From NCBI GenBank assembly GCA_021157605.1, contig JAGGWG010000006.1:2387-66386 (forward strand): a stretch of DNA of 64,000 nucleotides. Reading direction: 5' to 3'. Each line of letters begins with the position of its first letter. Position 1 is the first letter of the stretch. Below are positions 38,866 to 62,282 of this stretch, in pieces. The stretch comes from a bacterium (GTDB lineage: Bacteria > Patescibacteriota > UBA1384 > JAGGWG01). The translations under genes were made by a program, and so were the position numbers. The notes under the pieces are model-generated. The model searched no databases. It saw only the letters and a list, made by a program, of their open reading frames with translations, and was not told the DNA's origin.

Positions 38866-38869
38866 ATTT

Positions 38870-39340: not shown

Positions 39341-39343
39341 AAT

Positions 39344-40630: not shown

Positions 40631-41096
40631 AACTAAGAGTTAGTTGTTTGCCTATTTTGAGACTCAAGACAATAAGGACTGCTTGGATTATAAGTCCCAA
40701 AAAAATTAAAAACAAGGATGTGCTTTTTTTAGGATTAAAAAGATAAGCAACTAAGCCTGCTGTATAACTCCCTCCTATGATAGGTATGGGTACAGCAGCA
40801 AGAAGAAAGATTAACCCCAGTCCCAGACGGCGAAAGTTTTTCTCGTGTTTTTGCCGGGTATAGAGAAAAATCTTTTCTTTTATTTTCTTTAAAAAAGGAA
40901 TAAAGTCAATCAGTTTTTCTATTTGCCCCAAAAGCAAAATTGTGATCAACCCCCCCAGCCAAGCACCAATAATGCTGATTGTCATTGCCGCTAAAAGAGG
41001 GAGATTGTATTGAAGTAAAGCCAAAGGGATTGAGCCTCTCATCTCAACTACAGGGGCAAAAGCCAGAAAAAGTATTTTTAGGTATATTGCTAACAT
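40623..41096 (-). CDS. Small membrane protein, putative small multidrug export family (COG2426-like)
   Basis: It has PVVEMRGSIPLAL at the N-terminus and four TM helices. Confidence 0.4.
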   Translation of the reverse strand: MLAIYLKILFLAFAPVVEMRGSIPLALLQYNLPLLAAMTISIIGAWLGGLITILLLGQIEKLIDFIPFLKKIKEKIFLYTRQKHEKNFRRLGLGLIFLLAAVPIPIIGGSYTAGLVAYLFNPKKSTSLFLIFLGLIIQAVLIVLSLKIGKQLTLSYV

Positions 41097-41099
41097 TGG

Positions 41100-41861
41100 T
41101 TAAATTAAAAAATAGATTATTATCCCTGAAGCGACCAAAAAGCGCCAGATAGCGAAGGGCCAAAGGCGGTGATGTTCTAAATAGCGGAGGAGCCAGGCTA
41201 CAACTAAATAGCTAAAGGCAAAGCTGGTTAAAAAGCCTATTAGATAAGGCACAAGAAAAGAGTGGTTTAAGGAAATAATTTTTGGAGCTTCTAAAAGAGT
41301 TGCCCCCAGTATGGCTGGTGTGGCTAAAAGAAAGGAGAACTTGGCTGCTTCTTTTCTTTTTAGACCTAAAAATAGGGCTACAGAAATTGTAATGCCTGAA
41401 CGGGAAACACCCGGGAAAAGGGCCAAAGCTTGGGCTAAACCAATTAGCAAAGCATCTGTTAAAGTAAGCTGTTTTGCTGTTTTTTCTCCGGTTTTTTGGT
41501 CTGCCCAAATCAGAATCAAGCCAAAGAAAATAAGATTAAAGAGAGTCAGACTGGTTATGCGCCAAAACGATGGCTGGGTTTTTTCCAGAACAATACCTAA
41601 AACCGTAGCAGGGATTAAGGCTAAAAAGAGTTTGAAAATTAAGGAAGAAGACAGGGGGCGTTCTTTAAAAAGAGCTGGCCACTTTTTAGCAAAATAAACA
41701 ATTAGAGCTAAAGCAGAACCAAAGTGGATAAAGACATCAAAGCTCAAGTCAAAAGAAAGATGAAATAATTTTTCAGTTAAAAAAAGATGGGCTGAAGAAG
41801 ATATAGGTAGAAACTCAGTTAAAGCTTGGATTAAAGCTAAAATTACTGCCTGAATACCCAT
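41100..41861 (-). CDS. uppP: Undecaprenyl-diphosphatase
   Basis: It has ALTEFLPISSSAHL and SRSGITI, the BacA/UppP motifs. Confidence 0.85.
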   Translation of the reverse strand: MGIQAVILALIQALTEFLPISSSAHLFLTEKLFHLSFDLSFDVFIHFGSALALIVYFAKKWPALFKERPLSSSLIFKLFLALIPATVLGIVLEKTQPSFWRITSLTLFNLIFFGLILIWADQKTGEKTAKQLTLTDALLIGLAQALALFPGVSRSGITISVALFLGLKRKEAAKFSFLLATPAILGATLLEAPKIISLNHSFLVPYLIGFLTSFAFSYLVVAWLLRYLEHHRLWPFAIWRFLVASGIIIYFLI

Positions 41862-43372: not shown

Positions 43373-44245
43373 ATGGCAAGTAAAGAAACAGGGATGATTT
43401 CTGAAAGTTTGACACATGAGCGCGAACGGGAGGAGCGAATAAAAGATGGGGTTTGGCGGCCAAAGATTTTAGCCCCTTTTAGAGAAGTGGTTTGCGGTGC
43501 TTCTACAAAGAGTTTTCCGGGTTTAATTTATCTGCGAAATCCTGATCGTTTTAAGGAGCCTTTAACAGAACCACAAAAAGTAAGGGCAGCCAAGAGTTTG
43601 ATTTCTTTTATCAGAGCTCTTGATCCTGATCTTGATCCTAAAAAAGTTGCTTATCCAGAGCTTAGCCATTCAACTAATATGGTAGTTTTAGATGAACAAA
43701 CAGCAAAAAGACACGTTGAACCAAGAATAAAGATTGAAAATACCGATGGTTTAATTTCTCAGCTTAAAGGCTACACCTTAATGATTTTAGGAGCAGATTG
43801 TCCTTCTATAGCTCTTTTTGATCCTAAAACTCACTCTGTGGGTGTTTTTCACTCAGGTTGGCGGGGAACTGCTCAAGGCATTGTAATTGAAGGGGTAAAG
43901 AAGATGCAGGAAGTTTTTGCTGCTAATTCTAGTGATTTTTACGCCGTAGTAGGTCCGGGCTACAGCCGCAATTATGAAGTTCGCGAAGATGTACTGGAGG
44001 CATTTAGAGCCAGCCAAATTTTTTCAGAAGAAGAGCTGAACCGCTTTTTTGTTCGCAAAGACGAAGAACACTTTAATTTAGATCTTCACCAGGCTTTAGC
44101 TCTTGAGCTCCAAAAAGCAGGTGTCCCTGAAAATCAAACAGAGATAACCTCTTTGCGAACAGATTTAGATAATGATCTTTTTCCTTCTTATCGTTTGGAA
44201 AAAGATCAAGCTGATCGTTTTGCCTTTGCTATTGCTTTAAAATAA
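43373..44245 (+). CDS. YfiH/PgeF (DUF152, laccase-domain) family protein
   Basis: It has GADCPSIALFDPKTHSVGVFHSGWRGTAQGIV and an extra ~60-aa N-terminal region. Confidence 0.7.
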   Translation: MASKETGMISESLTHEREREERIKDGVWRPKILAPFREVVCGASTKSFPGLIYLRNPDRFKEPLTEPQKVRAAKSLISFIRALDPDLDPKKVAYPELSHSTNMVVLDEQTAKRHVEPRIKIENTDGLISQLKGYTLMILGADCPSIALFDPKTHSVGVFHSGWRGTAQGIVIEGVKKMQEVFAANSSDFYAVVGPGYSRNYEVREDVLEAFRASQIFSEEELNRFFVRKDEEHFNLDLHQALALELQKAGVPENQTEITSLRTDLDNDLFPSYRLEKDQADRFAFAIALK

Positions 44246-44284
44246 CTTTACAAGCAAGTTTTTTGTTTTTACTCTTAAAGGGCA

Positions 44285-46036
44285 ATGCCAGATCCCTTAG
44301 AGGAGATTAAACAAAAAGTTGATATTGTTGATTTAATCTCTTCTTATATTTCTTTAAAAAAGGCAGGTCGCAACTATAAAGCCCTTTGCCCTTTTCATCA
44401 GGAAAAAACCCCTTCTTTTATGGTTTCCCCGGAAAAACAGATTTGGCACTGTTTTGGTTGTGGTCGCGGAGGTGATGCCATTTCCTTTGTTATGGAAATG
44501 GAGGGTTTGGAGTTTTATGAGGCTTTAAAGTTTTTAGGGGAAAAAGTGGGGGTAAAAGTAGAGCCCCTAAACCAAGAGGCTTATTCAGAGAAAAAGCGCC
44601 TCTATGAGCTAAATGAGATAGCGGCTAAGTTTTTTCAGTATGTTTTATGGAAAACTGCTCCCGGCAAGAAAGCACTGAAGTATTTGCGTGATCGCGGACT
44701 AAAAGATACAACTATTGATGAATTCCACATAGGTTATGCTCCTAATCAAAAAGATGCTTTAAGCAAATTTCTGCTTAAACGTAAATACCCTGTTCCACTT
44801 TTGGTAAAATCAGGTTTAGTTATTAAAAAAGATAATCCGTCTCCAAAAGAAACTCCTATTTTTGATAGGTTTCGCGGTCGCGTAATCTTTCCTGTATTTA
44901 ATCAGGGGGGTTCAATTGTGGGTTTTTCTGGAAGAATTATGCCTCATTTGGAAAGCGACAATTTAGCTAAATATCTTAATTCTCCTGATACCCCTGTGTT
45001 TAATAAAAGTTTTGTTTTGTATGGCTTAAACTTTGCCAAGCAGGCAATTATGAAAAAGGGTTTTGTTGTTTTAGTAGAGGGACAGATGGATGTTATCTCT
45101 GCTCATCAAGCAGGCTTTTTAAACACAGTGGCTTCTTCTGGCACTTCCTTAACTGAACCTCAGCTTGATTTGCTCCGCCGATTTACTAATAAGATATATT
45201 TTGCCTTTGATCAAGATTCAGCTGGGCAAGTTGCTACTGAAAGGGGGATTGAGTTAGCTCTTAAGAAAGGTTTTTTGGTATATGTAGTGTTTATTCCTAA
45301 GCCGTATAAAGATGTAGATGAGTGCGTAAAGTCTAACCCTAAAAAATGGGAGGAAGCCTTATCTAAAAAGCGCAGTATTATTGAATACTTTTTTCAGATT
45401 TATGCCAAAGGGGCCAAGACTATTGAGCAGCGCAAAGAAGCAGCAGAAAAAGTTTTGCTTTGGATTAAAGTGATCCCTGACCCGATCTTACAGGGAGAGT
45501 GGATGCAAAAGCTGAGTTCTGCTCTTGATATTGGAGAACCCTATCTTTATGAGGCTTTACAGAATCTCTCTAAAGATAAAGTTAAAACTCAACCAGTCGG
45601 GGGAGACAAAGCTAAATCTTCTTTTGGCAAAGAGGAAGTAAAAAAACGAATTGTGGCTTTTTTGTTTGTTTTTCCTTCATTCTATAAAAGATCAAAATCT
45701 AAACTAAATAGACTTTTGAAGCAAAACAAACTTTACAATCTTTGGTTTAAATTCTACAATCAGAAAGATAGAGTTAAAGATAGTTTTTTGGCTCGTCTTA
45801 AAAGCCCAGAGTTGCCTTTAGCAGTACTGGAAGTGGAGAATGATTATGATCAGGGTGACAAAAAGTTGGCTTGGCAGGAATTTAATGATTTAGTGCAGTT
45901 TTTATACAGAGAAGCAAAAGAGATGCAGATTGCTAAGCTTCAGCGTCAGATTAAAATCTGTGAGAAGAAAAAAGATTCCCTTCATCTTAAAAAACTTCTT
46001 AGAAAATTGCAAGATTTAATTATGGATAAACAATAA
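44285..46036 (+). CDS. dnaG: DNA primase
   Basis: It has the CHC2 zinc finger [30 protein letters not shown] and a TOPRIM domain ([12 protein letters not shown]). Confidence 0.9.
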
Positions 46037-51684: not shown

Positions 51685-52488
51685 TCAACAATCCTCTCTA
51701 GCTTCCTGGCCCAACAGCCATTTTTCTTTCTTCAGAACTGCCTCGTAGGTTTTTTTGTGCCAATAGAACAGCCTTTTGTCAAGTTCATCTGATATATGAT
51801 AAAAATGAAGATGGGCATACATTTCGGTTAATTTTTTTGCAAAAATCTTTTCCTTAGGTTTAAGCTCTTGAGGTTTTTTCAGCTTCTTCAACCACTGTCG
51901 GGCTTCAACATGCTCCGGCACATTGAGTTTTAGATGTAATACTATATTTTTATACGCATCGCTGCTAAATTTAAATCTCCGGATTTCTTCCAATGTGTTG
52001 TTAAAACTTCGAATTTCTTGATTAAGTCGTGCAAGATATTCATTAATTTTGGGGCCCAGTTTCGCGGTTCCTGGCAATAAAAGTGTTTGTCCAAGCACTG
52101 TATGAACATCAGGATTAAAGATATTATAGAAAGGATTGCCCCACTCTCTCAGCTTGCTGTCCGCTGTTCTTGCCATGTCGTACCGGTGATATCCCCCTTC
52201 TTCATATTTCGTCCAGCTTCCCAGAATCTCTAATTGTTTCTTCAATAGATTAATCGCCTGCATTTTTTCTTCGAAAGTTTTTTTCTCATAAAGGTAAAAA
52301 GCTACCTCCACAGAGAGTCCAGGTATAAGAGCAGGAATAATACCTGAAAGAATATTCTGCAATGAAAAAATATATCCAGTTTTCACCCATCTTGCCCATC
52401 CAAGAGCTAGTATCAAGAGGACTAGGAGTGTGGCAAACCAAAGAGTGGCTGGGTAATTTCTCAATGTTTTCTTCCACAAACTGCACAT
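51685..52488 (-). CDS. Hypothetical protein with two N-terminal TM helices and a soluble C-domain
   Basis: 267 aa. The N-terminus ATLWFATLLVLLILALGW and IIPALIPGLSVEVAFYL is hydrophobic. I recognised no catalytic motif. Confidence 0.4.
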   Translation of the reverse strand: MCSLWKKTLRNYPATLWFATLLVLLILALGWARWVKTGYIFSLQNILSGIIPALIPGLSVEVAFYLYEKKTFEEKMQAINLLKKQLEILGSWTKYEEGGYHRYDMARTADSKLREWGNPFYNIFNPDVHTVLGQTLLLPGTAKLGPKINEYLARLNQEIRSFNNTLEEIRRFKFSSDAYKNIVLHLKLNVPEHVEARQWLKKLKKPQELKPKEKIFAKKLTEMYAHLHFYHISDELDKRLFYWHKKTYEAVLKKEKWLLGQEAREDC

Positions 52489-52612: not shown

Positions 52613-52666
52613 ATTCTTATTCTTATCTTTCTCACTTCATCCTCTCCGCCACCACTTCGGCGAATT

Positions 52667-55663
52667 TTAATCTGAAGAACCAGCATCTTCAAACAAAAAT
52701 TGAGCTTGTTTTAAAGTAACCTGAGCAATGGGCTCAGCCTCCTGTGGCGGAATTCCCGATCGATAAAGAATCCTTTTAATTTTGCCTCTAATCCTAGCAA
52801 GCAACACGTCATTATTCGTCCAATCTACCGCCAGATCTTCTTTAATTGCCTGTACCACTTCCTTTGCTAACCGTCTCAATTCTTTATCCTCTTTTATATA
52901 CTTTTTCCCTTTTGTCAATGCGTCATAAAAAGCTAACTCTTCCTCACTCAAGCCTAATTTTTGCCCCTTTCTCTCTTCTGCTTTTATCTCCTTTGCCAAG
53001 TCAATCAACTTATCAATAGTTTCGGCAGAATCTATAAATTTCTTCTCATATTTCTCAATTACCTCTTCCAATCTTTCTCTAAGAGAGTCATACCGCACTA
53101 TATTTTTCCTTAATCGCGAATTAATTTCATCACTTAGCAATTTTCTTAATACTTGAATCGCCAAATTGGGGTAGGCCATCTGCTTTAGTCTTTTCAAAAA
53201 TTCTTCATCAAAGATCGAAACCTCCGGCTTTTTCTTGCCTTGCATCTCTAAGATATCTATTGGTTTGTCAGCTGCAATGCTCTCGGCAATCAGCTCTTTA
53301 ACTGTAGTTTCTATTTTCTGCTCCACCGTTAGTGGCCGAACAATTACTCTTTTAACAATATTTTTCTTAATCGCCTGAAAGAACTCTACTTCTTTTTGAA
53401 TTTTATCTGCTTCGGGATGGGGCCGAATAAAAGCCCACAATTTAAACAATGCTGTTGCCTCTTTTATAAAACGTTTTTGTTTTTCTTCATCAATTCTCCC
53501 TGTTTCTTCATCAGTAATAACTTTGTTAATCGCCCGCTGAAAGAGTCGAGCCAATTTCCTTCCTGGTAGCTTGTGCCAGCTTTTGTATCTCATCCCAGCA
53601 AAATAAGAACGAACGATATCGTATTTCTCGTGCATTCTCTCAATTAACTCCTCTAGAGGGATCAAGGCTTCTTTGACCTCTTTTTCACTATAGATGTTCA
53701 ATGCTTTCCTCAAATCATCCGCAATCCCAATATAATCAACGATTAAACCTCCCTGCTTATCCTTAAAAACCCTGTTCACTCTCGCAATCGCCTGCATCAA
53801 AGTATGGTTTTTCAAAGGCTTGTCCATATACATTGTGGCCAAGCAAGGCACATCAAACCCCGTCAACCACATATCGCAAACAATCACCATTTTGAGCGGA
53901 TCATCTGGATCCACAAATCTCTCTTTTAGCTGTTCCACATCCAAATCATCCTGAACCTTTCCTTTAAAATCAGTCAACCCGGAAACAGCCACTGCACACT
54001 CTGGAGCCTCAGGGTTTTTAGAAATTAGTTTATACATCTTGACCGCTACTTTTCGACTAATGGTCACCACCATCGCTTTTCCTTCAACTGCCCGATGGTT
54101 GAAATGCCAGACGATATCTCGGGCGATTTTCTCTAGCCGGTCAGGGTCACTGATCAGCTTTTCTAATCTGGAATACCTCTTCTTAAGTTCTTCTTTTGCC
54201 TCTGTATCTAAATTCGCCGTAAGATGGTCAAAATCTTCATCTATAAACTCGTTTGTTAAATGCAAAGGCACAAGTCTTCCTTCGTAATAGATAGGAACGA
54301 CTGCTTTATCTTCCACCGCTCTATCGATAGGATAAACACTAATATAATCTCCAAAAACCAACCTCGTATCTCTATCCCGAAGGCTGATTGGAGTCCCAGT
54401 AAAACCGAGAAAAGAAGCATTGGGCATTGCCTGACGAGCATTGCCTGCAAGTTTTGCGTATTGCGATCGATGAGCTTCGTCAGCAATAACAATTAGATTA
54501 TGCTTCTTAGAGAGAAGAGGGTATTTTTCTTCTTCACGCTCGGTCTCAAATTTTTGAATTGTGGTAAAGATTATGTCTCCACTTGCTCTTTTAAGTCTCT
54601 CTCGTAAATCTCTGATTGACTTTGCCTGTTTAGGAAAGAGGCCACACCTTTTAAACTTCTTAAAAAGTTGGTTGTCAAGATCGTTTCTGTCAGTCAAAAA
54701 TACAAAAGCTGGATTTTTAAGTTCTTTAAGTTGTCGTACTTTGTTCACATAAAAAATCATTGAAATAGATTTTCCCGAGCCTTGCGTGTGCCAAAAAACT
54801 CCAATGCGACCATCTCCTTTAGGCTTAACTTTTGTCTTTGTGGCTTCAATCGCTTTGTTCACCCCAAAGTATTGGTGATAAAGGGGCATCTTTTTGACAA
54901 AAGTGCTCCCTTCTTTCTCAAAAATGATGAAATTTTGAACGATATCTAAAAAACGAGCCTTGTGGAAAATGCCTTTAATCAAAACCTCAAGTTGGTTCAC
55001 TCCTTTTGTTTTTTCGTTTTCATTCTCAATTTTTTTCCAAACCGAGAACCATTCGCGGGTAGAACTAATTGTACCGTGCTTAGCTTCTAAAAGATCAGAA
55101 ATAACAATGACTTGATTGTATTTAAAGATATCGGGGATATCTTTTTTGTAACCTTTCATCACTTGATCGTAAGCATCATCGATTGTGGCATTTTCTGTAG
55201 CCGGGTTTTTGAATTCAAAAAGAGCCAAAGGCAAACCATTTACAAAGACTATGAGATCGGGCCGCCTTACTTTTTCTGTGCCTTGAACGGAAAATTGGTT
55301 AACGATTAAAAAGTCATTTCGCTCCGGCTGCTCAAAATCAATTAGCTTAACATAATCCCATTTTTCTTCGTCAATCTTGAGCGGTACACCCTGAATAAGC
55401 AGTCGGTAAAAGTTCTTGTTAGCAATTATAAGGTCCGGATGTTCGATTCGTTGAATTTCCTCAATCGTTTCTTCTATTGCTGCTTGAGGAATTCCCGGAT
55501 TCAAATTTACCAAAGCCTCTTTGAGCCTTCTTTCTAAAATTACCTGGCGATAATCTCTTCGTTCCAATACCAAATCTTTTGGACCAAAGGCATAATCATA
55601 CCCAAGGCTTTTAAACCACTCAATTGCTGGTTGTTCTGTTAGGGTTTGTTCGATTAGTTTCAT
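52667..55663 (-). CDS. hsdR: Type I restriction enzyme R subunit
   Basis: 998 aa. It has an N-terminal PD-(D/E)XK region, an SF2 helicase motif I (FWHTQGSGKS) and motif II VIADEAHRSQ. The C-terminal half is helical. Confidence 0.9.
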   Translation of the reverse strand: MKLIEQTLTEQPAIEWFKSLGYDYAFGPKDLVLERRDYRQVILERRLKEALVNLNPGIPQAAIEETIEEIQRIEHPDLIIANKNFYRLLIQGVPLKIDEEKWDYVKLIDFEQPERNDFLIVNQFSVQGTEKVRRPDLIVFVNGLPLALFEFKNPATENATIDDAYDQVMKGYKKDIPDIFKYNQVIVISDLLEAKHGTISSTREWFSVWKKIENENEKTKGVNQLEVLIKGIFHKARFLDIVQNFIIFEKEGSTFVKKMPLYHQYFGVNKAIEATKTKVKPKGDGRIGVFWHTQGSGKSISMIFYVNKVRQLKELKNPAFVFLTDRNDLDNQLFKKFKRCGLFPKQAKSIRDLRERLKRASGDIIFTTIQKFETEREEEKYPLLSKKHNLIVIADEAHRSQYAKLAGNARQAMPNASFLGFTGTPISLRDRDTRLVFGDYISVYPIDRAVEDKAVVPIYYEGRLVPLHLTNEFIDEDFDHLTANLDTEAKEELKKRYSRLEKLISDPDRLEKIARDIVWHFNHRAVEGKAMVVTISRKVAVKMYKLISKNPEAPECAVAVSGLTDFKGKVQDDLDVEQLKERFVDPDDPLKMVIVCDMWLTGFDVPCLATMYMDKPLKNHTLMQAIARVNRVFKDKQGGLIVDYIGIADDLRKALNIYSEKEVKEALIPLEELIERMHEKYDIVRSYFAGMRYKSWHKLPGRKLARLFQRAINKVITDEETGRIDEEKQKRFIKEATALFKLWAFIRPHPEADKIQKEVEFFQAIKKNIVKRVIVRPLTVEQKIETTVKELIAESIAADKPIDILEMQGKKKPEVSIFDEEFLKRLKQMAYPNLAIQVLRKLLSDEINSRLRKNIVRYDSLRERLEEVIEKYEKKFIDSAETIDKLIDLAKEIKAEERKGQKLGLSEEELAFYDALTKGKKYIKEDKELRRLAKEVVQAIKEDLAVDWTNNDVLLARIRGKIKRILYRSGIPPQEAEPIAQVTLKQAQFLFEDAGSSD

Positions 55664-55672
55664 TTTGCCTCA

Positions 55673-56911
55673 TTAGAAAAAATAAAAATACATCCCACTA
55701 ATCCAACACCTCTTTTGCCCTTCAAAATCTGGGCCGCAAAAAGGAAGGGTTCGAGAAGTGCTGTCATTCAAAAGAAAGGGTTTGGTAGGATAACGTAGTC
55801 CCGTCCCAATATTAGCCTCATTTTTGTAAACATTTGCTATATCATCACAGATCACCGCTAAAAAAGAAGCGAAGACAGTGTCATTATGAATCATTTTGTT
55901 TTTTTGGAAAATCTCAAAAAAAGTCTCTCCCTTTTCATTCTTTAAAAATTTCGACGCTTCAACACAAATGGTCACTCTGAAATCAGCTTGAAAATCTGCT
56001 TGCAATTGCTGCTGATACACAATGTTTGCTTTTCTCAAAATGGTTTTTAAAAGTCGGGGAGACATTGTTTGGGGAAATTCTTGAAAAAGGGCCATAAAGA
56101 AAGAAGCAAGTTGATCTTTGGCGGGCTTATATTCTTCATTTTCTAAAAAATCAGGATCAAAAATTTGTTCGATAAACTCTTCAAAATGTGAGATTTTGGG
56201 GTAGAAAAACTCTGCGTAGTCCAAAAACTTTAAATATCTCTGGGTCTCTTTCTGGAAGTTTTCACTACCTATGAGAGCAATGACTATAAATTTCTTTTTT
56301 AGATTTTCTCTGCACAAAATGTTTCTGATAAAGTAACTAAGAGTTTCGAGGAAAAAGAGTCCTTCTTCTCCTGAACGATCAGCATCTTCTATTATCAAAA
56401 AGAAATCTTGCCGCTTCAAAAGTTTCTTCGACCCTTCTAGGAACAACTTTTGAAATTCAACCATAGCTTCCGGGGGGAGTTCGCGAAACAGATCCAATAG
56501 TCCAGTTAATCCACCAAGACGGGCAGAAGACAAAATGGCTTTAAAAAGTTCAATAGCGAAATTTCGGCCACTTTTCCCTTTCATCTTCTTTTCCAAAAAA
56601 GATAACTCCGAAGTCTGTTGAACCATCTCTAACAACAGCCCCTCCCATAAAAGTTTTCTGTTGGGATAACTCCAAGCCTCAAACTTTATCCATTTTTCCT
56701 TTTTCGACCTTTTTCTTTTGTCCATTATTTGGTACAACATTGTGCTCTTACCTATACCATAAGGACCAATAAGACCTACTAGAGCTGGCTTATCGATTGA
56801 AGACAATTTTTGCTCAAAGGATCTGATATATTCTGAAAAATTTAAAAGATCCGGCACCTCGGGTGTCTCTTGAAGCAGTTTCAAGTTTTTAATAAAACCT
56901 TTTGTCTTCAT
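55673..56911 (-). CDS. KAP-family P-loop NTPase embedded between hsdS and hsdR
   Basis: It has the Walker A motif LIGPYGIGKST, the KAP-typical FEAWSYPNRKLLWEGLL and the Walker B motif FFLIIEDADRS. It starts 2 nt after the hsdS stop and stops 9 nt before hsdR. Confidence 0.6.
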   Translation of the reverse strand: MKTKGFIKNLKLLQETPEVPDLLNFSEYIRSFEQKLSSIDKPALVGLIGPYGIGKSTMLYQIMDKRKRSKKEKWIKFEAWSYPNRKLLWEGLLLEMVQQTSELSFLEKKMKGKSGRNFAIELFKAILSSARLGGLTGLLDLFRELPPEAMVEFQKLFLEGSKKLLKRQDFFLIIEDADRSGEEGLFFLETLSYFIRNILCRENLKKKFIVIALIGSENFQKETQRYLKFLDYAEFFYPKISHFEEFIEQIFDPDFLENEEYKPAKDQLASFFMALFQEFPQTMSPRLLKTILRKANIVYQQQLQADFQADFRVTICVEASKFLKNEKGETFFEIFQKNKMIHNDTVFASFLAVICDDIANVYKNEANIGTGLRYPTKPFLLNDSTSRTLPFCGPDFEGQKRCWISGMYFYFF

Positions 56912-56913
56912 GG

Positions 56914-58137
56914 CTATACCCTTATTTCCCCACTCATTAATTTAGGCAAAAGTAAATCGCGAAGAGACGATAAAAGTTGGTTTTCTTTTACATTCCGGAT
57001 AAGTTGTTTATAAAGGGGGAAGCACATTTTTTCGAAATGATTAAGCAGCTTCTTTGGAGGGAGAACAAAAGGCATTCTGCAAAGATCATCCCATTTTACC
57101 ACAGGCATCTTGGTCCCCGATGCGCATTTGGAAGCGAATTCTATTGTAGAAGCAGAGAATAAGAGAGAAATTGAAAATGAATATAACTCTCGCTTTCTAG
57201 GATAAATCACAAAAACTGATTGATTTGTGACACCATCGAAAGGTGCTATAACTACCTTGTGAAAATAAGGCCTTACGGCTCCGAAAAGAATATCCCCTTT
57301 GTAAAATCTAAATGCCGATGTCTTAATCTCTGCACCCTTACCAAAAGTGGAAACACTCAGACTTCGCCGAGGAAACCTCCCTAGATCAAGTAACTTTTCT
57401 CTCTTCCACTCCTCAAAGGTTTTAATTCTCTCCCTCCGTCGCTCTACGATCTCTCCCAACCTCTCTACTCTCCATCCTTCCGGAATTTTGCCTAATTCGC
57501 TGTCAACAAATTTCACTTTTTCCCAACCCGGGAATCTAAATTTCACAAACCACTCTTCAAAAATCGCCTGCGCCATTTCCTCCAGTGTCTGGTTAATCTT
57601 GTTGTTGAGCTCAATCTTCTCATCAAAAGCAGAAAGAATATCCGCAATGCGCTTTTGTTCGTTGAGGTCTTGGGGGATTGTTATTTCAAAGTTCTCAAAT
57701 TTGGATTTAGAAATATTCGTGTATACCGACCCACTATATTTTAACAATCGAGGTTTCACGTATTTAAAACAGTAATAAAGGAATTCGGGTAGAATTTTAT
57801 CTATATCGCAAATTACAGAATTGATTTGTTGATTAGTAAAGCTTTCCCTGCATGTTATTCCGACTTCTCCTACAGTAGCCAAACACGAAACCACAACAGC
57901 TTTGGGTGGCAACTTTAAATTTCTCATCGATTGTGCCCCTTTTTCTGAAAGAGTTCGCTCTGTTTTCTCTATGTAGCGCTGATTTTTTAGATCGGGAATG
58001 GTAATAAATGGGTAACGACCGCCGAAATTTCTTGGATCAGTAGTAGAAGGAGTTTTGCCTGTTATAACCTTCCCGATTTCTTTAATTTTCACGCTTTTCC
58101 ATTTTTTACTCTTGGAAAACATCTTTTCGTCCTCCAT
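56914..58137 (-). CDS. hsdS: Type I restriction-modification specificity subunit
   Basis: It has two target-recognition domains separated by conserved helical spacers (e.g. the IFEEWFVKFRFPGW and LRDLLLPKLMSGEI repeats). An alternative start at the MFSK codon (58122) has a better GGAGGA Shine-Dalgarno sequence. Confidence 0.85.
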   Translation of the reverse strand: MEDEKMFSKSKKWKSVKIKEIGKVITGKTPSTTDPRNFGGRYPFITIPDLKNQRYIEKTERTLSEKGAQSMRNLKLPPKAVVVSCLATVGEVGITCRESFTNQQINSVICDIDKILPEFLYYCFKYVKPRLLKYSGSVYTNISKSKFENFEITIPQDLNEQKRIADILSAFDEKIELNNKINQTLEEMAQAIFEEWFVKFRFPGWEKVKFVDSELGKIPEGWRVERLGEIVERRRERIKTFEEWKREKLLDLGRFPRRSLSVSTFGKGAEIKTSAFRFYKGDILFGAVRPYFHKVVIAPFDGVTNQSVFVIYPRKRELYSFSISLLFSASTIEFASKCASGTKMPVVKWDDLCRMPFVLPPKKLLNHFEKMCFPLYKQLIRNVKENQLLSSLRDLLLPKLMSGEIRV

Positions 58138-58169: not shown

Positions 58170-59075
58170 TTATTTAAAAAGCTCCTCCAAGAAAATCCTA
58201 ATTTTAACTGCTGCACCTTCCACGTCTGACAATTGAATATTGATCGAGTATGAATGTTGAGCACTATCAATTAAAATTTTGTAATTCATTACCTCTTTGT
58301 AAATTCTTTTGTTGGAAAGCAACCTTTCCGCTTTCCCCAAGAGATTTTTTGTCTCTAAATACTGCCCCTTTTCATCTTTGACTTCTGACTCTTTGTTTAT
58401 TTGCTGGAACTTCCTCACAATAGAAAGAGGCAAAATTCTTCTTAAAATTAATATAGATGCTATTGGTCTTTTGTTGGCGAAATTAAAATTAAAATCATCA
58501 CACAATATTTTCAAATCTGGAGGTAGCTTTTTCACCAAGCTGTTTGGAAATAAATCTTTCTCAGTTCGACTGCTTCTTATTGTTGGTTTATCTTTAGTTT
58601 TGCTAATCGTCCAATCAAGAAGCTTATCACGCACAGCCTCTAAAACTGAAACTATCTGGCTTTGAGGGAAAAACATTGCAAACTCTGTCCGCATCTTAAC
58701 TGCTTGTGCAAGCATTTCTTGCATGGGTGGTGGATATTTAATTTGCAAGTAGTCTTCACTTTTATCAAGCAGGTTCTCAAGTTCGGGAATTGACTCAAAG
58801 ATGTGTTGTCGAGAAAGCAAATCTTGAGTTTTGTCGTCTTTGGGAAACATCACGGGTATCCATCGACCCAAAACAGGATTAAGTGCCTTGGGCTCACCTC
58901 TTATCAACCTATAGCTAGGTGGTTTGCCTGAACTGTAACCATTCATTTCGCGATCAATCCATTTTAAAAATTCTTTATCGCCCAATTCACTCGCCAGGAT
59001 CTTTGCCTTCCTTAATAACTCCGAAACTTTTGCTTCAGATTTAATGATCTCGTTTTTAAATTCCTGGATATCCAT
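58170..59075 (-). CDS. Hypothetical ~300-aa protein embedded between hsdM and hsdS (possibly Abi-like)
   Basis: I prefer the MDIQEF start at 59075 with a GAGGG Shine-Dalgarno sequence. The track starts at 59117 and would overlap the upstream gene by 32 nt. The N-terminal segment LKWIDREMNGY resembles abortive-infection (AbiTii-like) N-domains, but this is unverified. Confidence 0.4.
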   Translation of the reverse strand: MDIQEFKNEIIKSEAKVSELLRKAKILASELGDKEFLKWIDREMNGYSSGKPPSYRLIRGEPKALNPVLGRWIPVMFPKDDKTQDLLSRQHIFESIPELENLLDKSEDYLQIKYPPPMQEMLAQAVKMRTEFAMFFPQSQIVSVLEAVRDKLLDWTISKTKDKPTIRSSRTEKDLFPNSLVKKLPPDLKILCDDFNFNFANKRPIASILILRRILPLSIVRKFQQINKESEVKDEKGQYLETKNLLGKAERLLSNKRIYKEVMNYKILIDSAQHSYSINIQLSDVEGAAVKIRIFLEELFK

Positions 59076-59085
59076 ACTTCCCTCT

Positions 59086-59379
59086 TTATCTGATAACGAA
59101 AAATTTATAAATCTCAAAAAGCAAACTTGCTATAGCAATTAGCATTCCAATGCCCGCTATGATAACACCAGCTAAAGTGATTTTATTTAAGGCTTTTGTT
59201 AACTTCTCTGAAGAGGCGGTGGCCTTCTCGATATTCGAATTAAGGTTTTTTAGCTCTTCCTTAATCCTTCCCACTGTACGAAAAAAGCCTGAAGGCCAAG
59301 GTCTCACAGAGAAATAGGAAGTCAAAGTGTCCAAAAATTTCCGGATTTTTTCATAATCTTCTTCCTTAAATCTCATCAT
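59086..59379 (-). CDS. Small tail-anchored membrane protein (97 aa)
   Basis: It has a soluble helical N-terminus and a single C-terminal TM (ITLAGVIIAGIGMLIAIASLLF). There is a 4-nt ATGA overlap with the GIY-YIG stop. Confidence 0.35.
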   Translation of the reverse strand: MMRFKEEDYEKIRKFLDTLTSYFSVRPWPSGFFRTVGRIKEELKNLNSNIEKATASSEKLTKALNKITLAGVIIAGIGMLIAIASLLFEIYKFFVIR

Positions 59380-59681
59380 TTTCCTTTCTGTTCTTTATTA
59401 AATGGCGGTTTTCTTCTCCTAACAAGAAAAGTCTCTAGCCTTTTGGCTTCTTCTACAGAGTTAGTAAGAATCACTCCAAACTTTACCGCTTGCTGTTTCT
59501 GCTCTCGAATCTCCCGCACACTTTCCAAAATTCTTTTTGGCAAACGTCCTCTTTTCGCTCGCCCCACTTTTTGAAGTCGACCAGAACGAGTGAAGATCCC
59601 GTATACCCCCGGCTTGTCTTTGGGCAATTGTTTGAGAGTGACTTTGGTGATCTTTTTGATTGAAACAAATTTTTTACGCAT
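59376..59681 (-). CDS. Small stand-alone GIY-YIG nuclease domain protein (YhbQ-like, 101 aa)
   Basis: It has KPGVYGIF...GRLQKVGRAKRGRL...ILESVREI...VILTNSVEEAKRLETFLVRRRKPPFN. This places the GIY / Y(K)VG / Arg / Glu / Asn catalytic pattern in order. It overlaps the hsdM stop by 8 nt and has a GGGAG Shine-Dalgarno sequence. Confidence 0.6.
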   Translation of the reverse strand: MRKKFVSIKKITKVTLKQLPKDKPGVYGIFTRSGRLQKVGRAKRGRLPKRILESVREIREQKQQAVKFGVILTNSVEEAKRLETFLVRRRKPPFNKEQKGK

Positions 59682-61278
59682 TTTGTCTCCCTAAACGCTT
59701 TAAGTTATGCTTAATTTTTCTTTCTAGCTTCCTCGACTCCTTGAAATATTTTTCTAATTGCTTCGTCAATTTTTTCATCTTCTTCTCAAACGGTATGCCG
59801 TCGTCTTCTTCGGGCTTAATACCCACATATCTTCCCGGCGTCAAAACATAACCTGCTTTTCTAATTTCTTCGATAGTGACTGCCTTACAAAATCCTGGCT
59901 CATCCTTGTATTTTCCGGCTCCCTTTTCTCCCCGCCAAGCTCTAACAGTATCAGCGATTTTCTGAATCTGCTTGTCAGTGATCACATATTGTTTTCTGGA
60001 AATTGGCTCATACATTTCGCGCGCATCAATAAACAAAGTTTCACCACGACGGTCTCTAAATCTTTTATTTCTTTTGTCTTTGGTCAAAAACCAAAGAGAG
60101 ACCGGCAATGAAACGTTGTAGAAAAGTTTGGGCGGACAGGCAATAATTACGTCTACCAAATCATCTCTAATAATTCTTTTTCTAATTTCGCCTTCTTTGC
60201 CTCCCACAGCCAGGGCGCCATTTGCCATCACAAAACCAGCTACTCCGCCGGGAGCCAAGTGGTAAACAAAGTGCTGGATCCACATAAAGTTTGCGTTGCT
60301 GTTAGGAGGAAGACCATATTTGATCCTTGGATCTTTCTGAATTCTATCTGCGCCCCAATCTGAAAAGTTAAAGGGGGGATTGGAAATTACAATATCTGCT
60401 CGGAGATCAGGGAATTTGTCATTGTGGTAAGAATCGCCTTGTTCAACGTGGGCGATGATCCCTCTAATTGCCAAATTCATTTGGCAAAGCCGCCAGGTGG
60501 TTGAGTTTTTTTCTTGGCCATAAAAGTTTATTTTGCTGGGATCTTTTTTGTGCATTTCAATAAATTTTCTGCTTTGGATAAACATACCTCCGCTTCCGCA
60601 GGCTGGGTCAAAAACCCGACAGTTTTCATAGGGCTCCAAAATCTCTATCAGTAACTTTACTAAACATCGAGGCGTGTAGAATTCGCCACCTCTTTTGCCC
60701 TCTGCAGAAGCAAACTGACCAATGAAATACTCATAGATTCTTCCCAAGAGATCTTTGTCTTTTTCTTTTTGTTCTTGAATCTTGCTAAAGAGATTGATCA
60801 GCTCGCCTAGAATTCTGGGTTCTAAATCTCTGACTCGCGTGTACTCCACAAAAATTTTAGGCAGAACACCTTTTAGTTGAGGGTTTTCTTGTTCTATTAA
60901 TTCCATTGCCTTGTCTAGCTTACGAGCAATATCAGAGGAGGTAGCGTTTTCTTGAAGATAGGACCATCGGGCTTCTGGGGGAATATAAAAAATGCCCTGG
61001 CTAAGGTAAGAATCTTTGTCTTCAGTAATAGCTTCTCGAGCTTGAGGCGTAGGGGCGTAATAGGGGCTGTTTTTGTCTTGGGTGGCTTTTTCGAGAAATC
61101 TCTTTCGCTTATCAAAAGCCTCAGAAATGTATTTTAAAAAGATCAATCCCAAAACAATATGTTTGTATTCAGAGGCATCCATGCTGCCTCGCAGCTTGTC
61201 AGCTGCTTGCCAAAGTTGGTTTTCAAAATCGATGTCTTTCATTTCTGCTATCTTAGCAGATTTACCCCTAAAAATCAA
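59674..61278 (-). CDS. hsdM: Type I restriction-modification N6-adenine DNA methyltransferase subunit
   Basis: It has an N-terminal HsdM_N helix domain, the motif I region FDPACGSGGMF and motif IV NPPFNFSDW. Confidence 0.9.
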   Translation of the reverse strand: MIFRGKSAKIAEMKDIDFENQLWQAADKLRGSMDASEYKHIVLGLIFLKYISEAFDKRKRFLEKATQDKNSPYYAPTPQAREAITEDKDSYLSQGIFYIPPEARWSYLQENATSSDIARKLDKAMELIEQENPQLKGVLPKIFVEYTRVRDLEPRILGELINLFSKIQEQKEKDKDLLGRIYEYFIGQFASAEGKRGGEFYTPRCLVKLLIEILEPYENCRVFDPACGSGGMFIQSRKFIEMHKKDPSKINFYGQEKNSTTWRLCQMNLAIRGIIAHVEQGDSYHNDKFPDLRADIVISNPPFNFSDWGADRIQKDPRIKYGLPPNSNANFMWIQHFVYHLAPGGVAGFVMANGALAVGGKEGEIRKRIIRDDLVDVIIACPPKLFYNVSLPVSLWFLTKDKRNKRFRDRRGETLFIDAREMYEPISRKQYVITDKQIQKIADTVRAWRGEKGAGKYKDEPGFCKAVTIEEIRKAGYVLTPGRYVGIKPEEDDGIPFEKKMKKLTKQLEKYFKESRKLERKIKHNLKRLGRQNA

Positions 61279-61346
61279 TCTTGATTTTTGGAATAAATAT
61301 TGTGTAATTTGGGCTGGTTTTGGGGGTGAAAGTAGTGTTAGGGCTT

Positions 61347-61391: not shown

Positions 61392-61559
61392 TTAATCCTC
61401 TCTGCTGCTAGTGAGCTGCCCCCATTCTTTTTCTCCATAAACGACTTTTCCGCAACGGGGACAGCGGTAAACCACTGTTGTCAGGTTGTCCCTGACAGTA
61501 GTGGTTCCCCCTTTTTGGAGGAGAGTTTCACAATTTGGGCAGTGGTCATGATGATCCAT
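61392..61559 (-). CDS. 55-aa zinc-ribbon protein (CPNC...CPRC), not in the supplied ORF track
   Basis: My hand translation gives MDHHDHCPNCETLLQKGGTTTVRDNLTTVVYRCPRCGKVVYGEKEWGQLTSSRED. It lies in a G+C-rich patch and is the first of three tandem zinc-ribbon ORFs. Confidence 0.35.
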   Translation of the reverse strand: MDHHDHCPNCETLLQKGGTTTVRDNLTTVVYRCPRCGKVVYGEKEWGQLTSSRED

Positions 61560-61578
61560 ATCTTGCCTCCCCGGACTT

Positions 61579-61935
61579 TTAGTCTCCCGGCAGAAAAGGA
61601 TGGTTGCCTTTTTCTTCCACGGTCTCGATCAAAGTGATAATGATGACTATTGGTAATAAGAAGAGGTAAAGGCACATTCCTCCAAATTTCTGCAGAGCGA
61701 ATCTTATTCGCCATTCTGCGGGAGCAATGAGTCTGTTCCAAAAATACAGGCTCGCGCTGTAGCGAATTACTTGTTCCGGAGGTATTGCGAGTATTCTTCG
61801 CTCTATGACTTCCACGAAATGATGACACCGGTTACAAAAATAACGATTTACTTTGGTGTCTCCTGATTCTAGTATTGGTTCTACGAACTGCAAAAAGTTA
61901 TTGCACCGTTCACATCTTATTTCAGCACCTCTCAT
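61579..61935 (-). CDS. Zinc-ribbon protein with a hydrophobic C-terminal region (paralog A)
   Basis: It has CERC...CNRC, then LYFWNRLIAPAEW, then a C-terminal TM (LYLFLLPIVIIITLI). Confidence 0.45.
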   Translation of the reverse strand: MRGAEIRCERCNNFLQFVEPILESGDTKVNRYFCNRCHHFVEVIERRILAIPPEQVIRYSASLYFWNRLIAPAEWRIRFALQKFGGMCLYLFLLPIVIIITLIETVEEKGNHPFLPGD

Positions 61936-62282
61936 TTTAATACCTCCTCTTCTTCGTAATCGTTTTCGCGCGAGATGAGATCCATAACATAATCAACTGT
62001 AAACAAAGGCACAATGATAGAAAGGAGACCCAACTCCCTTATTTCTTCGAGGGCGAAAGATACCCCCCATGCCAAAGGAGCAACCAGCTTTCTCCAAAAA
62101 TAAAGTGTTGGGCCACACCTTTTTTGCTCTGTGAGAGTAAGATTGAGACCAGGATCGTACCACGATATTACCTCAACATATTCATTGCAATTGCCGCAAT
62201 AATAACGCTCAATGTCTTTGTCGTCGAGACTGAGTATAGTCTCGACGAATCGCAGTAACTTCCCGCATTTGTCGCACTTCAT
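61932..62282 (-). CDS. Zinc-ribbon protein with a hydrophobic C-terminal region (paralog B)
   Basis: It has CDKC...CGNC, then LYFWRKLVAPLAW, then a hydrophobic helix. It aligns colinearly with paralog A and overlaps it by 4 nt. Confidence 0.45.
   Translation of the reverse strand: MKCDKCGKLLRFVETILSLDDKDIERYYCGNCNEYVEVISWYDPGLNLTLTEQKRCGPTLYFWRKLVAPLAWGVSFALEEIRELGLLSIIVPLFTVDYVMDLISRENDYEEEEVLK

What the first reader, a model, noticed from the sequence alone, without database searches (positions are those of the whole stretch)
58170..59681. Three-gene cassette between hsdM and hsdS: mini GIY-YIG nuclease, tail-anchored membrane protein, and a ~300-aa helical protein
The 101-aa protein has the full GIY-YIG catalytic constellation (GVY...KVG, Arg, ILE-Glu, LTN-Asn) but no DNA-binding domain. 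Its start overlaps the hsdM stop, and its stop overlaps the start of a 97-aa tail-anchored membrane protein in ATGA fashion. Next comes a ~300-aa protein whose N-terminus (LKWIDREMNGY) loosely recalls abortive-infection protein N-domains. A minimal nuclease with a small membrane protein and a helical sensor-like protein is a plausible effector, membrane-disruptor and sensor triad. I do not recognise it as a named system.
Basis: partly seen in the sequence, partly recalled or inferred. Interest (0 to 1): 0.75.

Follow-up and report, generated by a model that had tools for sequence, protein, structure and literature searches.

The report
Three separate add-on genes inside a restriction operon
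The three genes are real, but they are three independently shuffled accessory genes lodged inside a mobile type I restriction-modification operon of an uncultured ultra-small bacterium, not one dedicated system: one is a known Abi-type protein, and two (a tiny nuclease and a small membrane protein) belong to rare families I found no description of.

Summary
On the minus strand, hsdM, a 101-aa GIY-YIG protein, a 97-aa tail-anchored protein, a 301-aa protein, hsdS, a KAP-like NTPase and hsdR form one tightly packed operon.

The triad reading does not hold. In 51 related loci the three genes occur in every partial combination, and all three occur together only here.

- **101-aa protein:** a very basic, stand-alone GIY-YIG domain like the UvrC N-terminus. 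Tyr27, Arg46, Glu83 and Asn95 are conserved, and Lys replaces the second Tyr. The family is rare and seen mostly in Patescibacteria. It is 57-92% identical across operons whose HsdM proteins are mostly only 26-37% identical, and it lies in or next to type I RM in 16 of about 25 distinct loci.
- **97-aa protein:** usually translationally coupled to hsdS. Its match to AbiTi is noise.

This is a new variant of the known theme of defence genes embedded in RM operons. How the nuclease and the membrane protein work is inferred, not shown.

The parts
59674..61278 (-). hsdM, type I RM methyltransferase (534 aa); first gene of the operon
   Evidence: Pfam N6_Mtase 2.8e-108 and HsdM_N 2.4e-29. 93% aa identity to the hsdM of L001.
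59376..59681 (-). Stand-alone mini GIY-YIG nuclease domain (101 aa; K+R 31 of 101 residues), similar to the UvrC N-terminal domain
59086..59379 (-). Tail-anchored coiled-coil membrane protein (97 aa, 'TM97'); family usually translationally coupled to hsdS
   Evidence: C-terminal TM segment at residues 69-87, KD 2.58. Invariant SSEKLTKALNxITLxGVII core. Directly upstream of hsdS with a 4-nt overlap in L001, L043-L048 and L051.
58593..59075 (-). AbiTii N-terminal alpha+beta domain (aa 1-161) of the 301-aa protein; presumed sensor
   Evidence: Pfam PF18864 E 4.9e-36, PADLOC AbiTii 7.8e-38. AF2 pLDDT above 90.
58170..58544 (-). HEPN domain (aa 178-301) of the 301-aa protein, c2405-type: conserved His274, no Arg of the Rx4-6H motif; presumed RNase effector
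56914..58137 (-). hsdS specificity subunit (407 aa)
   Evidence: Pfam Methylase_S 1e-42, two stretches. Only the conserved central and C-terminal regions match L001.
55673..56911 (-). KAP-family P-loop NTPase (412 aa), a second embedded gene in the hsdS-hsdR slot
   Evidence: Pfam KAP_NTPase 1.1e-5, 25.3 bits against a cut-off of 20. Weak PADLOC QatA/PifA matches. Replaced by an unrelated 187-aa gene in L001.
52667..55663 (-). hsdR restriction subunit (998 aa), with the nuclease motif present
   Evidence: 90% aa identity to the hsdR of L001, which carries HSDR_N, ResIII, SWI2_SNF2 and T1RH-like_C. The sequence shows RPDLIVFVNGLPLALFEFK, i.e. PD...ExK.

Best explanation
The 'cassette' is a mosaic of three separately inherited accessory modules. 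They sit in the hsdM-hsdS slot of a horizontally mobile, seven-gene type I RM operon: hsdM, GIY, TM97, AbiTii-HEPN, hsdS, KAP NTPase, hsdR. The host is a likely Patescibacteria/CPR bacterium.

Shown:
- The operon backbone (hsdM + GIY + TM97 ... hsdR) is shared at 82-86% nt identity with another genome. There it lies at a different chromosomal site and lacks the AbiTii gene.
- Each of the three families occurs without the others elsewhere.

Inferred mechanism: layered defence.
1. The type I enzyme restricts unmodified DNA.
2. The AbiTii-HEPN protein is a second-line abortive-infection module. Its variable N-domain senses a phage cue and its conserved HEPN domain cuts RNA. It may be kept latent by the RM complex, as PrrC is by EcoprrI.
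3. The mini GIY-YIG is a bare catalytic DNA-cutting module with no targeting domain. Like the UvrC N-domain, which needs UvrB, it most likely acts only when recruited by a DNA-bound partner. The only recurrent candidates are the HsdM/HsdS(/HsdR) complex. In other loci it is linked to a LexA-type repressor, which suggests DNA-damage control.
4. TM97 is either a membrane tether for the HsdS-containing complex or a small membrane effector.
For: Operon packing, from coordinates: overlaps of 8 and 4 nt, then gaps of 10, 32, 2 and 9 nt.

Independence of the modules: context tables of 51 loci.

Comparison with L001:
- 86% identity over window 61305..59098.
- 82% identity over 55664..52632.
- The AbiTii gene is absent and the KAP gene is replaced.

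Mobility: flanking housekeeping genes are only 69-76% identical, and they map to window 37996-41837 and 43424-45555, not next to the RM operon.

GIY family:
- Proteins are 57-92% identical between operons whose HsdM are mostly 26-37% identical, in two different gene orders.
- 13 of about 25 distinct GIY loci have it between hsdM and hsdS or directly upstream of hsdS, and 3 more lie beside a type I operon.
- Its neighbours are defence-type or nuclease genes: OLD ATPase, RnlA-like, DUF4145, HNH, RmuC, GmrSD.
- A LexA-like S24 repressor is adjacent in 6 loci.
- The fold and catalytic residues are supported.

AbiTii-HEPN: identity and the conserved-effector, variable-sensor pattern. The architecture and the RM-linked HEPN logic are published (PMC3710099).

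Embedding of defence genes in type I RM is an established pattern: TgvAB, PMC11411939; guilt-by-embedding and PrrC, bioRxiv 10.1101/2024.01.29.577857.
Against: - No biochemical or genetic data exist for any of the three proteins.
- The HEPN domain lacks the Arg of Rx4-6H, so RNase activity is uncertain.
- The GIY second Tyr is replaced by Lys, and the protein scores below Pfam's GIY-YIG threshold.
- Nine of about 25 GIY loci show no type I RM genes within the available flanks, although several are short contigs. Recruitment by Hsd proteins therefore cannot be obligatory.
- The much higher conservation of GIY than of HsdM argues against tight co-evolution with a specific Hsd partner.
- The loci came from pattern-based scans of metagenomes and are not an unbiased sample.
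- A TM97-like C-terminus next to AbiTii recurs once more (L049/L050), so a looser functional pairing of those two is not excluded.
Confidence: 0.78

Rival explanations
1. One reading: GIY (DNA effector), TM97 (membrane disruptor) and the 301-aa protein (sensor) form one dedicated three-component abortive-infection system that happens to sit in an RM operon.
For: The three genes are contiguous, co-oriented and translationally coupled or nearly so in the window. Each pair is seen together at least once elsewhere: GIY+TM97 in L001 and L051, GIY+AbiTii in L004, a TM97-like gene plus AbiTii in L049/L050.
Against: All three occur together only in the window among 51 loci. The closest relative operon lacks AbiTii. 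AbiTii-HEPN is complete on its own (sensor plus effector in one chain) and stands alone between hsdM and hsdS in L037-L042. GIY stands directly before hsdS, with no partner gene between them, in L007, L011 and L019, and in L009 and L010 where the upstream context is missing or different.
Confidence: 0.06
2. TM97 plus the 301-aa protein are a diverged homologue of the lactococcal two-component AbiT system (AbiTi + AbiTii), and GIY is unrelated to them.
For: A small ORF immediately upstream of an AbiTii-domain gene mirrors the abiTi-abiTii order. PADLOC gives an AbiTi match of E 0.0085 for the window protein. A gene ending in the TM97 C-terminus also precedes AbiTii in L049/L050.
Against: The AbiTi match appears in only 2 of 19 family members, at E about 0.005-0.009. 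It lies in the coiled-coil region and sits among equally weak LmuB, CorA and other hits. A 2026 review models AbiTi as an endoribonuclease-like domain (PMC13064643), whereas TM97 is a coiled coil plus a TM helix. In most loci TM97 precedes hsdS with no AbiTii present, and AbiTii mostly lacks TM97.
Confidence: 0.12
3. The mini GIY-YIG gene is a selfish, homing-endonuclease-like mobile cassette with a preference for the hsdM-hsdS junction. It contributes nothing to defence, and its variable neighbours are hitch-hikers.
For: - GIY is far more conserved (57-92%) than the HsdM of the operons that carry it (mostly 26-37%).
- A roughly 40-nt leader, AAGGTCGAAAATTATAAATAAAAAATYATAAATTTATG, recognisable in whole or in part in about eight loci with unrelated upstream genes, travels with it. 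In four loci a GC hairpin does too.
- Decayed copies exist in L024, L027, L032 and L036.
- Free-standing GIY-YIG homing genes between conserved genes are known in T4-like phages (established knowledge).
Against: At 101 aa there is no DNA-recognition domain, unlike I-TevI or the Seg proteins. The family is absent from IMG/VR viral contigs. The catalytic residues are invariant across the family. It is consistently co-oriented and packed inside operons, and in the window and L001 it is fused to hsdM with no leader. The hairpin occurs once per locus and does not flank the cargo genes.
Confidence: 0.15
4. The 101-aa protein is a housekeeping repair nuclease (YhbQ/UPF0213-like or a mini-UvrC/Cho) that is only coincidentally next to hsdM.
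For: The best sequence and structural matches are the UvrC N-domains. A LexA-type repressor is adjacent in six loci, as expected for an SOS gene such as cho.
Against: - It was found in only 3 of 185,579 species-representative genomes by the pattern scan.
- The exhaustive profile search gave only 18 cluster representatives at E <= 1e-10 among 1.84 billion.
- There is no Pfam GIY-YIG (PF01541) hit.
- 16 of about 25 loci are in or beside type I RM.
- The gene moves with the RM island, not with conserved housekeeping synteny.
Confidence: 0.03

Closest known systems
AbiTii-domain proteins fused to c2405-family HEPN domains (Anantharaman et al. 2013, PMC3710099)
   Same: Same two-domain architecture: an AbiTii N-domain of about 160-180 aa, and a C-terminal HEPN domain with the conserved His but no Arg. 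Same genomic theme, HEPN genes embedded in RM operons.
   Different: This clade is from CPR-type metagenomes. It is found here specifically in the hsdM-hsdS slot. The same HEPN domain is also attached to other, unrelated N-domains (P0105-P0122). No member has been tested.
Lactococcus lactis AbiT (AbiTi + AbiTii), an abortive-infection system
   Same: It shares the AbiTii domain. A small gene lies directly upstream of the AbiTii gene.
   Different: Lactococcal AbiTii has no HEPN domain (PMC3710099, PMC13064643). The upstream 97-aa protein is not demonstrably AbiTi. The lactococcal system is plasmid-borne and not RM-embedded (established knowledge; Bouchard 2002 could not be read).
Defence genes embedded in type I RM operons: PrrC in EcoprrI, RloC and other Rlo genes in Campylobacter, TgvAB in Vibrio cholerae VPI-2, and the 'guilt-by-embedding' candidates
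   Same: Accessory defence genes are inserted between hsd genes, co-transcribed with them, and swapped between related operons.
   Different: The embedded families here, a mini GIY-YIG and a tail-anchored coiled-coil protein, are not named in the main text of the two papers checked for this. The slot used is hsdM-hsdS as well as hsdS-hsdR.
UvrC / Cho N-terminal GIY-YIG domain
   Different: It has no UvrB-binding region, EndoV-like domain or HhH domain. The second Tyr is replaced by Lys. It has extra basic N- and C-terminal tails. It is rare and RM-linked rather than universal.
E. coli SymE, the SOS-induced toxin encoded beside hsd genes in the immigration control region
   Same: A small LexA-linked nucleic-acid-targeting protein located next to type I RM genes. 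This is an analogy for the LexA-GIY loci. RM-linked symE is mentioned in PMC3710099; the rest is established knowledge.
   Different: Unrelated fold (AbrB/MazE-like versus GIY-YIG). The window locus itself has no LexA gene.

Membership tests
GIY-YIG nuclease superfamily (101-aa protein) | Beta-beta-alpha-beta-alpha core fold | tested here: met
GIY-YIG nuclease superfamily (101-aa protein) | First-motif Tyr (GIY) | tested here: met
   Y27 is invariant in 22 sequences and aligns with UvrC Y19.
GIY-YIG nuclease superfamily (101-aa protein) | Second-motif Tyr (YIG) | tested here: not met
   K38 (QKVG) is nearly invariant at the position of UvrC Y29. Only P0058 has Tyr.
GIY-YIG nuclease superfamily (101-aa protein) | Catalytic Arg, metal-binding Glu, structural Asn | tested here: met
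   R46 aligns with UvrC R39, E83 with E76 and N95 with N88. R46 and E83 are invariant and N95 is conserved in at least 90%.
GIY-YIG nuclease superfamily (101-aa protein) | Reaches the curated Pfam PF01541 threshold | tested here: not met
   No Pfam family at E <= 1. Recognised only through NCBIfam UvrC models (8.4e-6, far below their cut-offs) and the family profile against PDB (6.9e-7).
GIY-YIG nuclease superfamily (101-aa protein) | Metal-dependent nuclease activity | not testable with these tools
   Needs purified protein and DNA substrates.
YhbQ/UPF0213-type housekeeping mini GIY-YIG | Widely conserved and independent of genomic position across relatives | tested here: not met
   3 loci in 185,579 representative genomes. 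Tight family of one 50%-identity cluster at E < 1e-30. Mostly inside type I RM operons.
UvrC / Cho excinuclease | Additional UvrB-binding, EndoV/RNase H-like and HhH domains | tested here: not met
   The protein is 101 aa. The match covers only UvrC residues of about 4-90.
AbiTii domain family, PF18864 (301-aa protein) | Scores above the curated Pfam threshold over most of the model | tested here: met
   125.1 bits against a cut-off of 27.6, profile positions 3-166 of 189. PADLOC AbiTii 7.8e-38.
HEPN superfamily, c2405-like (301-aa protein, C-domain) | HEPN helical-bundle fold | tested here: met
HEPN superfamily, c2405-like (301-aa protein, C-domain) | Rx4-6H catalytic motif | tested here: not met
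   H274 is nearly invariant, but positions -4 to -6 are I, L, I. D270, Q273 and S275 are conserved instead. This is exactly the c2405 description, 'conserved H but lacks R'.
Lactococcal AbiT two-component system | An AbiTi homologue encoded upstream of AbiTii | tested here: inconclusive
   PADLOC AbiTi E 0.0085. Only 2 of 19 family members hit, amid equally weak coiled-coil noise.
Lactococcal AbiT two-component system | Abortive-infection phenotype that requires both genes | not testable with these tools
   Needs phage assays.
Type I restriction-modification operon | hsdM, hsdS and hsdR present and intact | tested here: met
   Pfam N6_Mtase, HsdM_N and Methylase_S. hsdR is 90% identical to an HSDR_N/ResIII/T1RH-like_C protein. 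The PD...ExK motif is visible in the sequence.
   All three occur together only in the window among 51 loci. Every partial combination is observed.

The most novel reading that the evidence does not exclude
The mini GIY-YIG protein, and possibly TM97, are true accessory subunits of CPR type I restriction enzymes rather than independent neighbours. The bare, highly basic GIY-YIG domain would be recruited in trans by the DNA-bound HsdM2S or HsdR2M2S complex, as UvrB recruits the UvrC N-domain, and would add a second DNA-cutting activity. In the LexA-linked loci this would be under DNA-damage control. TM97, translationally coupled to hsdS, would tether the complex to the membrane where foreign DNA enters. 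That would be a previously unknown fourth and fifth component of a type I RM enzyme.
Probability: 0.18. Interest if true: 0.75.

Novelty: new variant of a known kind. Interest (0 to 1): 0.45.

Why it matters
Type I RM operons are now recognised as docking sites for extra defence genes. This locus shows two slots, hsdM-hsdS and hsdS-hsdR, being filled and swapped in ultra-small CPR bacteria, which largely lack CRISPR and are thought to depend on RM.

The AbiTii-HEPN gene adds one more instance of a known RM plus Abi pairing.

The useful new leads are two small families: a roughly 100-aa UvrC-like nuclease domain, and a tail-anchored protein coupled to hsdS. Both are tied to type I RM across unrelated Hsd families and are annotated only as hypothetical proteins. 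If either modulates restriction, it would change the textbook three-subunit picture of type I enzymes. If not, they are new embedded defence or selfish cassettes to add to the catalogues.

Tried and rejected
1. AbiTi identity of the 97-aa protein. The single weak PADLOC hit did not hold across the family. A PDB profile search gave only coiled-coil noise.
2. GIY as a replacement for a missing HsdR nuclease. Rejected, because the HsdR PD...ExK motif is present.
3. Gram-positive-type LexA boxes (GAAC-N4-GTTC-like) upstream of GIY or the second mini GIY-YIG. None lay in the relevant intergenic regions.
4. Rfam families in five GIY loci: none.
5. The GC hairpin as an attC-like site flanking several cassettes. 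It occurs once per locus, only upstream of GIY. Neither it nor the conserved leader is in the window.
6. Phage origin. Neither GIY nor TM97 relatives were found in IMG/VR.
7. Domain fusions that might reveal a GIY partner. The close relatives (E < 1e-10) are almost all solo proteins of about 95-107 aa. More distant fusions are UvrB/UvrC-like, Metallophos or DEDD types and are not specific to this family.
8. A plasmid search for lactococcal AbiT. It gave only AbiTii N-domain matches in Aeromonas, Klebsiella and similar hosts.
9. Bouchard 2002 (PMC151939) is not held.
10. The Patescibacteria HGT paper mentions GIY-YIG only generically.
Full report
**Observation**

All genes of interest lie on the minus strand and form one packed operon:

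| Gene | Coordinates | Size |
|---|---|---|
| hsdM | 61278..59674 | 534 aa |
| GIY-YIG-like ORF | 59681..59376 | 101 aa |
| tail-anchored ORF | 59379..59086 | 97 aa |
| AbiTii-HEPN ORF | 59075..58170 | 301 aa |
| hsdS | 58137..56914 | 407 aa |
| P-loop NTPase | 56911..55673 | 412 aa |
| hsdR | 55663..52667 | 998 aa |

- The junctions are an 8-nt overlap, an ATGA overlap, and then gaps of 10, 32, 2 and 9 nt.
- The mechanical ORF for the third gene starts at TTG 59117.
- ATG 59075 follows AAGAGGGAAG and is the start of the identical NCBI protein.
- NCBI annotates all three genes only as hypothetical proteins: MCD6194734/33/32, J7K05_00805/00800/00795, from an unclassified 'bacterium' MAG.
- Each has a family of homologues, so they are genes rather than chance ORFs.

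**The 301-aa protein**

- It scores 125 bits on Pfam AbiTii (cut-off 27.6) and 7.8e-38 on PADLOC AbiTii, over residues 17-176.
- An AlphaFold model built on 44 homologues has pLDDT 92. It shows an alpha+beta N-domain (1-161), a disordered linker (163-171) and a helical C-domain (178-301).
- The C-domain is the more conserved half, with FNFNF, R212, R221 and D270-x-x-Q-H274-S. It lacks an Arg 4-6 residues before the His.
- That is the 'c2405' HEPN family, which Anantharaman et al. [quoted passage not shown] They place it in their general picture of HEPN RNases embedded in RM operons (PMC3710099).
- The same C-domain also occurs behind unrelated N-domains (P0105-P0122), and the AbiTii domain occurs before other C-termini (P0123-P0126). 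This is the usual pattern of a variable sensor and a conserved effector.
- In four further look-ups the full-length protein sits alone between hsdM and hsdS, overlapping both (L037-L042).

**The 101-aa protein**

- Pfam finds nothing.
- NCBIfam UvrC models match weakly.
- A profile of the family hits the crystallised UvrC N-terminal GIY-YIG domains at E 6.9e-7.
- The alignment maps Y27 to UvrC Y19, K38 to Y29, R41 to K32, R46 to R39, R50 to Y43, E83 to E76 and N95 to N88. All are invariant or nearly so in the family.
- The AlphaFold model (pLDDT 83) has the beta-beta-alpha-beta-alpha core.
- The protein is extremely basic, with 31 K+R against 8 D+E, and has no further domain.
- An exhaustive profile search of 1.84 billion cluster representatives finds only one representative at E < 1e-30 and 18 at E < 1e-10, almost all of about 95-107 aa. 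Full-length UvrC appears only at about 1e-6.
- Only three hits turned up in 185,579 species-representative genomes: two Patescibacteria, and one MAG labelled Gammaproteobacteria.
- None turned up in IMG/VR.

**Context of the GIY family**

I collected 36 loci, called ORFs, clustered them and annotated them. After removing duplicates there are about 25 distinct loci.

- In 13 of them the gene lies between hsdM and hsdS, or directly before hsdS or after hsdM on a truncated contig.
- In 3 more it is beside a type I operon.
- A LexA-type S24 repressor is adjacent in 6.
- A second, canonical mini GIY-YIG family ('C6') directly precedes it in 4 (hhalign E 3e-5).
- The other neighbours vary. They include an OLD-family ATPase-TOPRIM, an RnlA-like protein, DUF4145, small HEPN-like proteins, HNH, RmuC and GmrSD.
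- GIY proteins are 57-92% identical between operons whose HsdM proteins are mostly only 26-37% identical and whose gene orders differ (hsdR-hsdM-...-hsdS against hsdM-...-hsdS-...-hsdR).
- The gene therefore moves independently of the RM backbone yet keeps landing in, or being kept in, the same slot.
- About eight loci with unrelated upstream genes share all or part of a roughly 40-nt leader immediately 5' of the ATG.
- Four of these loci share a GC hairpin (GGCGAGGA...TCCTCGCC) further upstream.
- The window copy has neither, because it is fused to the end of hsdM.
- Four loci hold decayed copies.

**The 97-aa protein**

- It has a coiled-coil N-part and a C-terminal TM helix (KD 2.58), with an invariant juxtamembrane core.
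- The PADLOC AbiTi hit (E 0.0085) is seen in only 2 of 19 members, among equally weak coiled-coil matches. I do not accept it.
- The family is small, with 19 clusters.
- In L001, L043-L045, L046-L048 and L051/L022 it lies directly upstream of hsdS with a 4-nt overlap, with or without GIY and without AbiTii.
- In L049/L050 an 81-aa chimera carrying only its C-terminal 40 residues precedes an AbiTii-HEPN gene.
- It mostly tracks the window's own Hsd family. It is also present, together with GIY, in an operon whose HsdM is only 34% identical.

**The decisive comparison**

- Locus L001, from a 508-kb Patescibacteria-type contig, matches the window at 86% nt identity across hsdM + GIY + TM97 (61305..59098).
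- It matches at 82% across hsdR (55664..52632).
- In between, only the conserved parts of hsdS match.
- The AbiTii-HEPN gene is missing.
- The KAP NTPase is replaced by an unrelated 187-aa gene.
- The housekeeping genes that flank the L001 operon are only 69-76% identical to the window. They map to window 37996-41837 and 43424-45555, which is not next to the window's RM operon.
- The operon is therefore a mobile island. GIY + TM97 belong to its backbone in this lineage, and AbiTii-HEPN and the KAP NTPase are exchangeable cargo.

**Interpretation**

The second criterion, a housekeeping YhbQ-type protein, is not.

The best-supported reading is a layered defence operon of a known kind. Precedents are PrrC in EcoprrI, the Rlo genes, TgvAB and the 'guilt-by-embedding' candidates. 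This one is filled with one known module (AbiTii-HEPN) and two small families that I found no description of in the papers searched.

Mechanistic steps beyond identity and context are inference:

- **AbiTii-HEPN.** Sensing by the N-domain and RNA cleavage by the HEPN domain. The missing Arg leaves catalysis uncertain.
- **GIY.** A bare catalytic domain that, like the UvrC N-domain, probably needs a DNA-bound partner. Hsd proteins are the only recurrent candidates, but 9 of about 25 loci lack visible Hsd genes, and GIY does not co-evolve with HsdM.
- **TM97.** A tether for the HsdS complex or a small membrane effector.

A selfish-cassette reading of GIY remains a serious rival.

**Verdict**

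The triad interpretation is not supported. This is a new variant of a known kind, of moderate interest, mainly for the RM-linked mini GIY-YIG and the hsdS-coupled membrane protein.

Noticed in passing
window 55673-56911 (-): A 412-aa KAP-family P-loop NTPase (Walker A GPYGIGKST; Pfam KAP_NTPase 1.1e-5; weak PADLOC QatA/PifA) fills the hsdS-hsdR slot. The closely related operon L001 carries an unrelated 187-aa gene there.
   Followed up: partly
window 51685-52488 (-): A 267-aa protein with an N-terminal hydrophobic segment lies 179 nt downstream of hsdR. It has no family match in Pfam, PADLOC, NCBIfam or PHROGs and is absent after the hsdR of L001. It may be part of the island.
   Followed up: partly
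window 61392-62282 (-): Immediately upstream of hsdM are two paralogous small proteins of about 117 aa with CxxC...CxxC zinc-ribbon motifs (61932..62282 and 61579..61935). A 55-aa zinc-ribbon ORF follows (61392..61559). Function unknown; possibly island cargo or regulators.
   Followed up: no
window 37996-41837 and 43424-45555, compared with L001:3-3845 and L001:14091-16225: The housekeeping genes that flank the RM operon in L001 are syntenic with a window region about 10 kb away that holds no RM genes. They are only 69-76% identical, against 82-86% for the operon. The whole RM operon has therefore moved or been transferred.
   Followed up: yes
L010, L011, L012, L016, L018, L051 and L002, the ~45 nt before the GIY ATG (e.g. 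L016:9960-10003): A conserved leader, AAGGTCGAAAATTATAAATAAAAAATYATAAATTTATG, travels with the GIY gene behind unrelated upstream genes. It contains a TTATAA-N8-TTATAA repeat and no obvious Shine-Dalgarno sequence. It is absent from the window.
   Followed up: partly
L002:7911-7942, L004:7916-7949, L019:4973-5009, L021:9914-9947: A GC-rich hairpin with a conserved stem base (GGCGAGGA...TCCTCGCC) and variable, compensating upper stems lies 55-90 nt upstream of GIY in four unrelated contexts. No Rfam match. It could be a terminator or a regulatory or boundary element of the GIY cassette.
   Followed up: partly
L004:7596-7913, L002:7621-7902, L014:5462-5875, L020:4360-4665: A second family of mini GIY-YIG proteins (93-137 aa, canonical Y...Y...R...H...E...N) sits directly upstream of the GIY gene in four loci, often with a LexA-like S24 repressor. 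This suggests a LexA plus two-nuclease module.
   Followed up: partly
P0105-P0122: The HEPN C-domain of the 301-aa protein (52-67% identical over that part) is attached to at least two or three other, unrelated N-terminal domains in proteins of 260-340 aa. This indicates sensor swapping on a fixed effector.
   Followed up: no
L024:3081-3371, L027:3188-3430, L032:761-1071, L036:1851-2033: Decayed copies of the GIY gene: one with an in-frame stop, plus N-terminally truncated or split copies. They show that the gene is dispensable and is lost in some lineages.
   Followed up: no
L049:2908-3153 (protein P0143): An 81-aa chimera. Its N-terminus resembles a zinc ribbon (FKCPFCNAYTKQS), and it is joined to the last ~40 residues of the TM97 family, directly upstream of an AbiTii-HEPN gene. 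One member of the TM97 alignment hit PADLOC PD-T7-4 at 7e-8; which member was not identified.
   Followed up: no
L051:6056-6319: A further, canonical 87-aa GIY-YIG gene (Pfam PF01541, 5e-16) follows hsdS in the same operon that already has the mini GIY and TM97 before hsdS.
   Followed up: no
window 59490-59663 (+) and the equivalent positions in many loci: A long antisense ORF, up to 130 aa in some loci, overlaps the GIY gene and displaced it in naive longest-ORF gene calling. It is probably a by-product of the Lys/Arg-rich codon usage and not a gene.
   Followed up: partly
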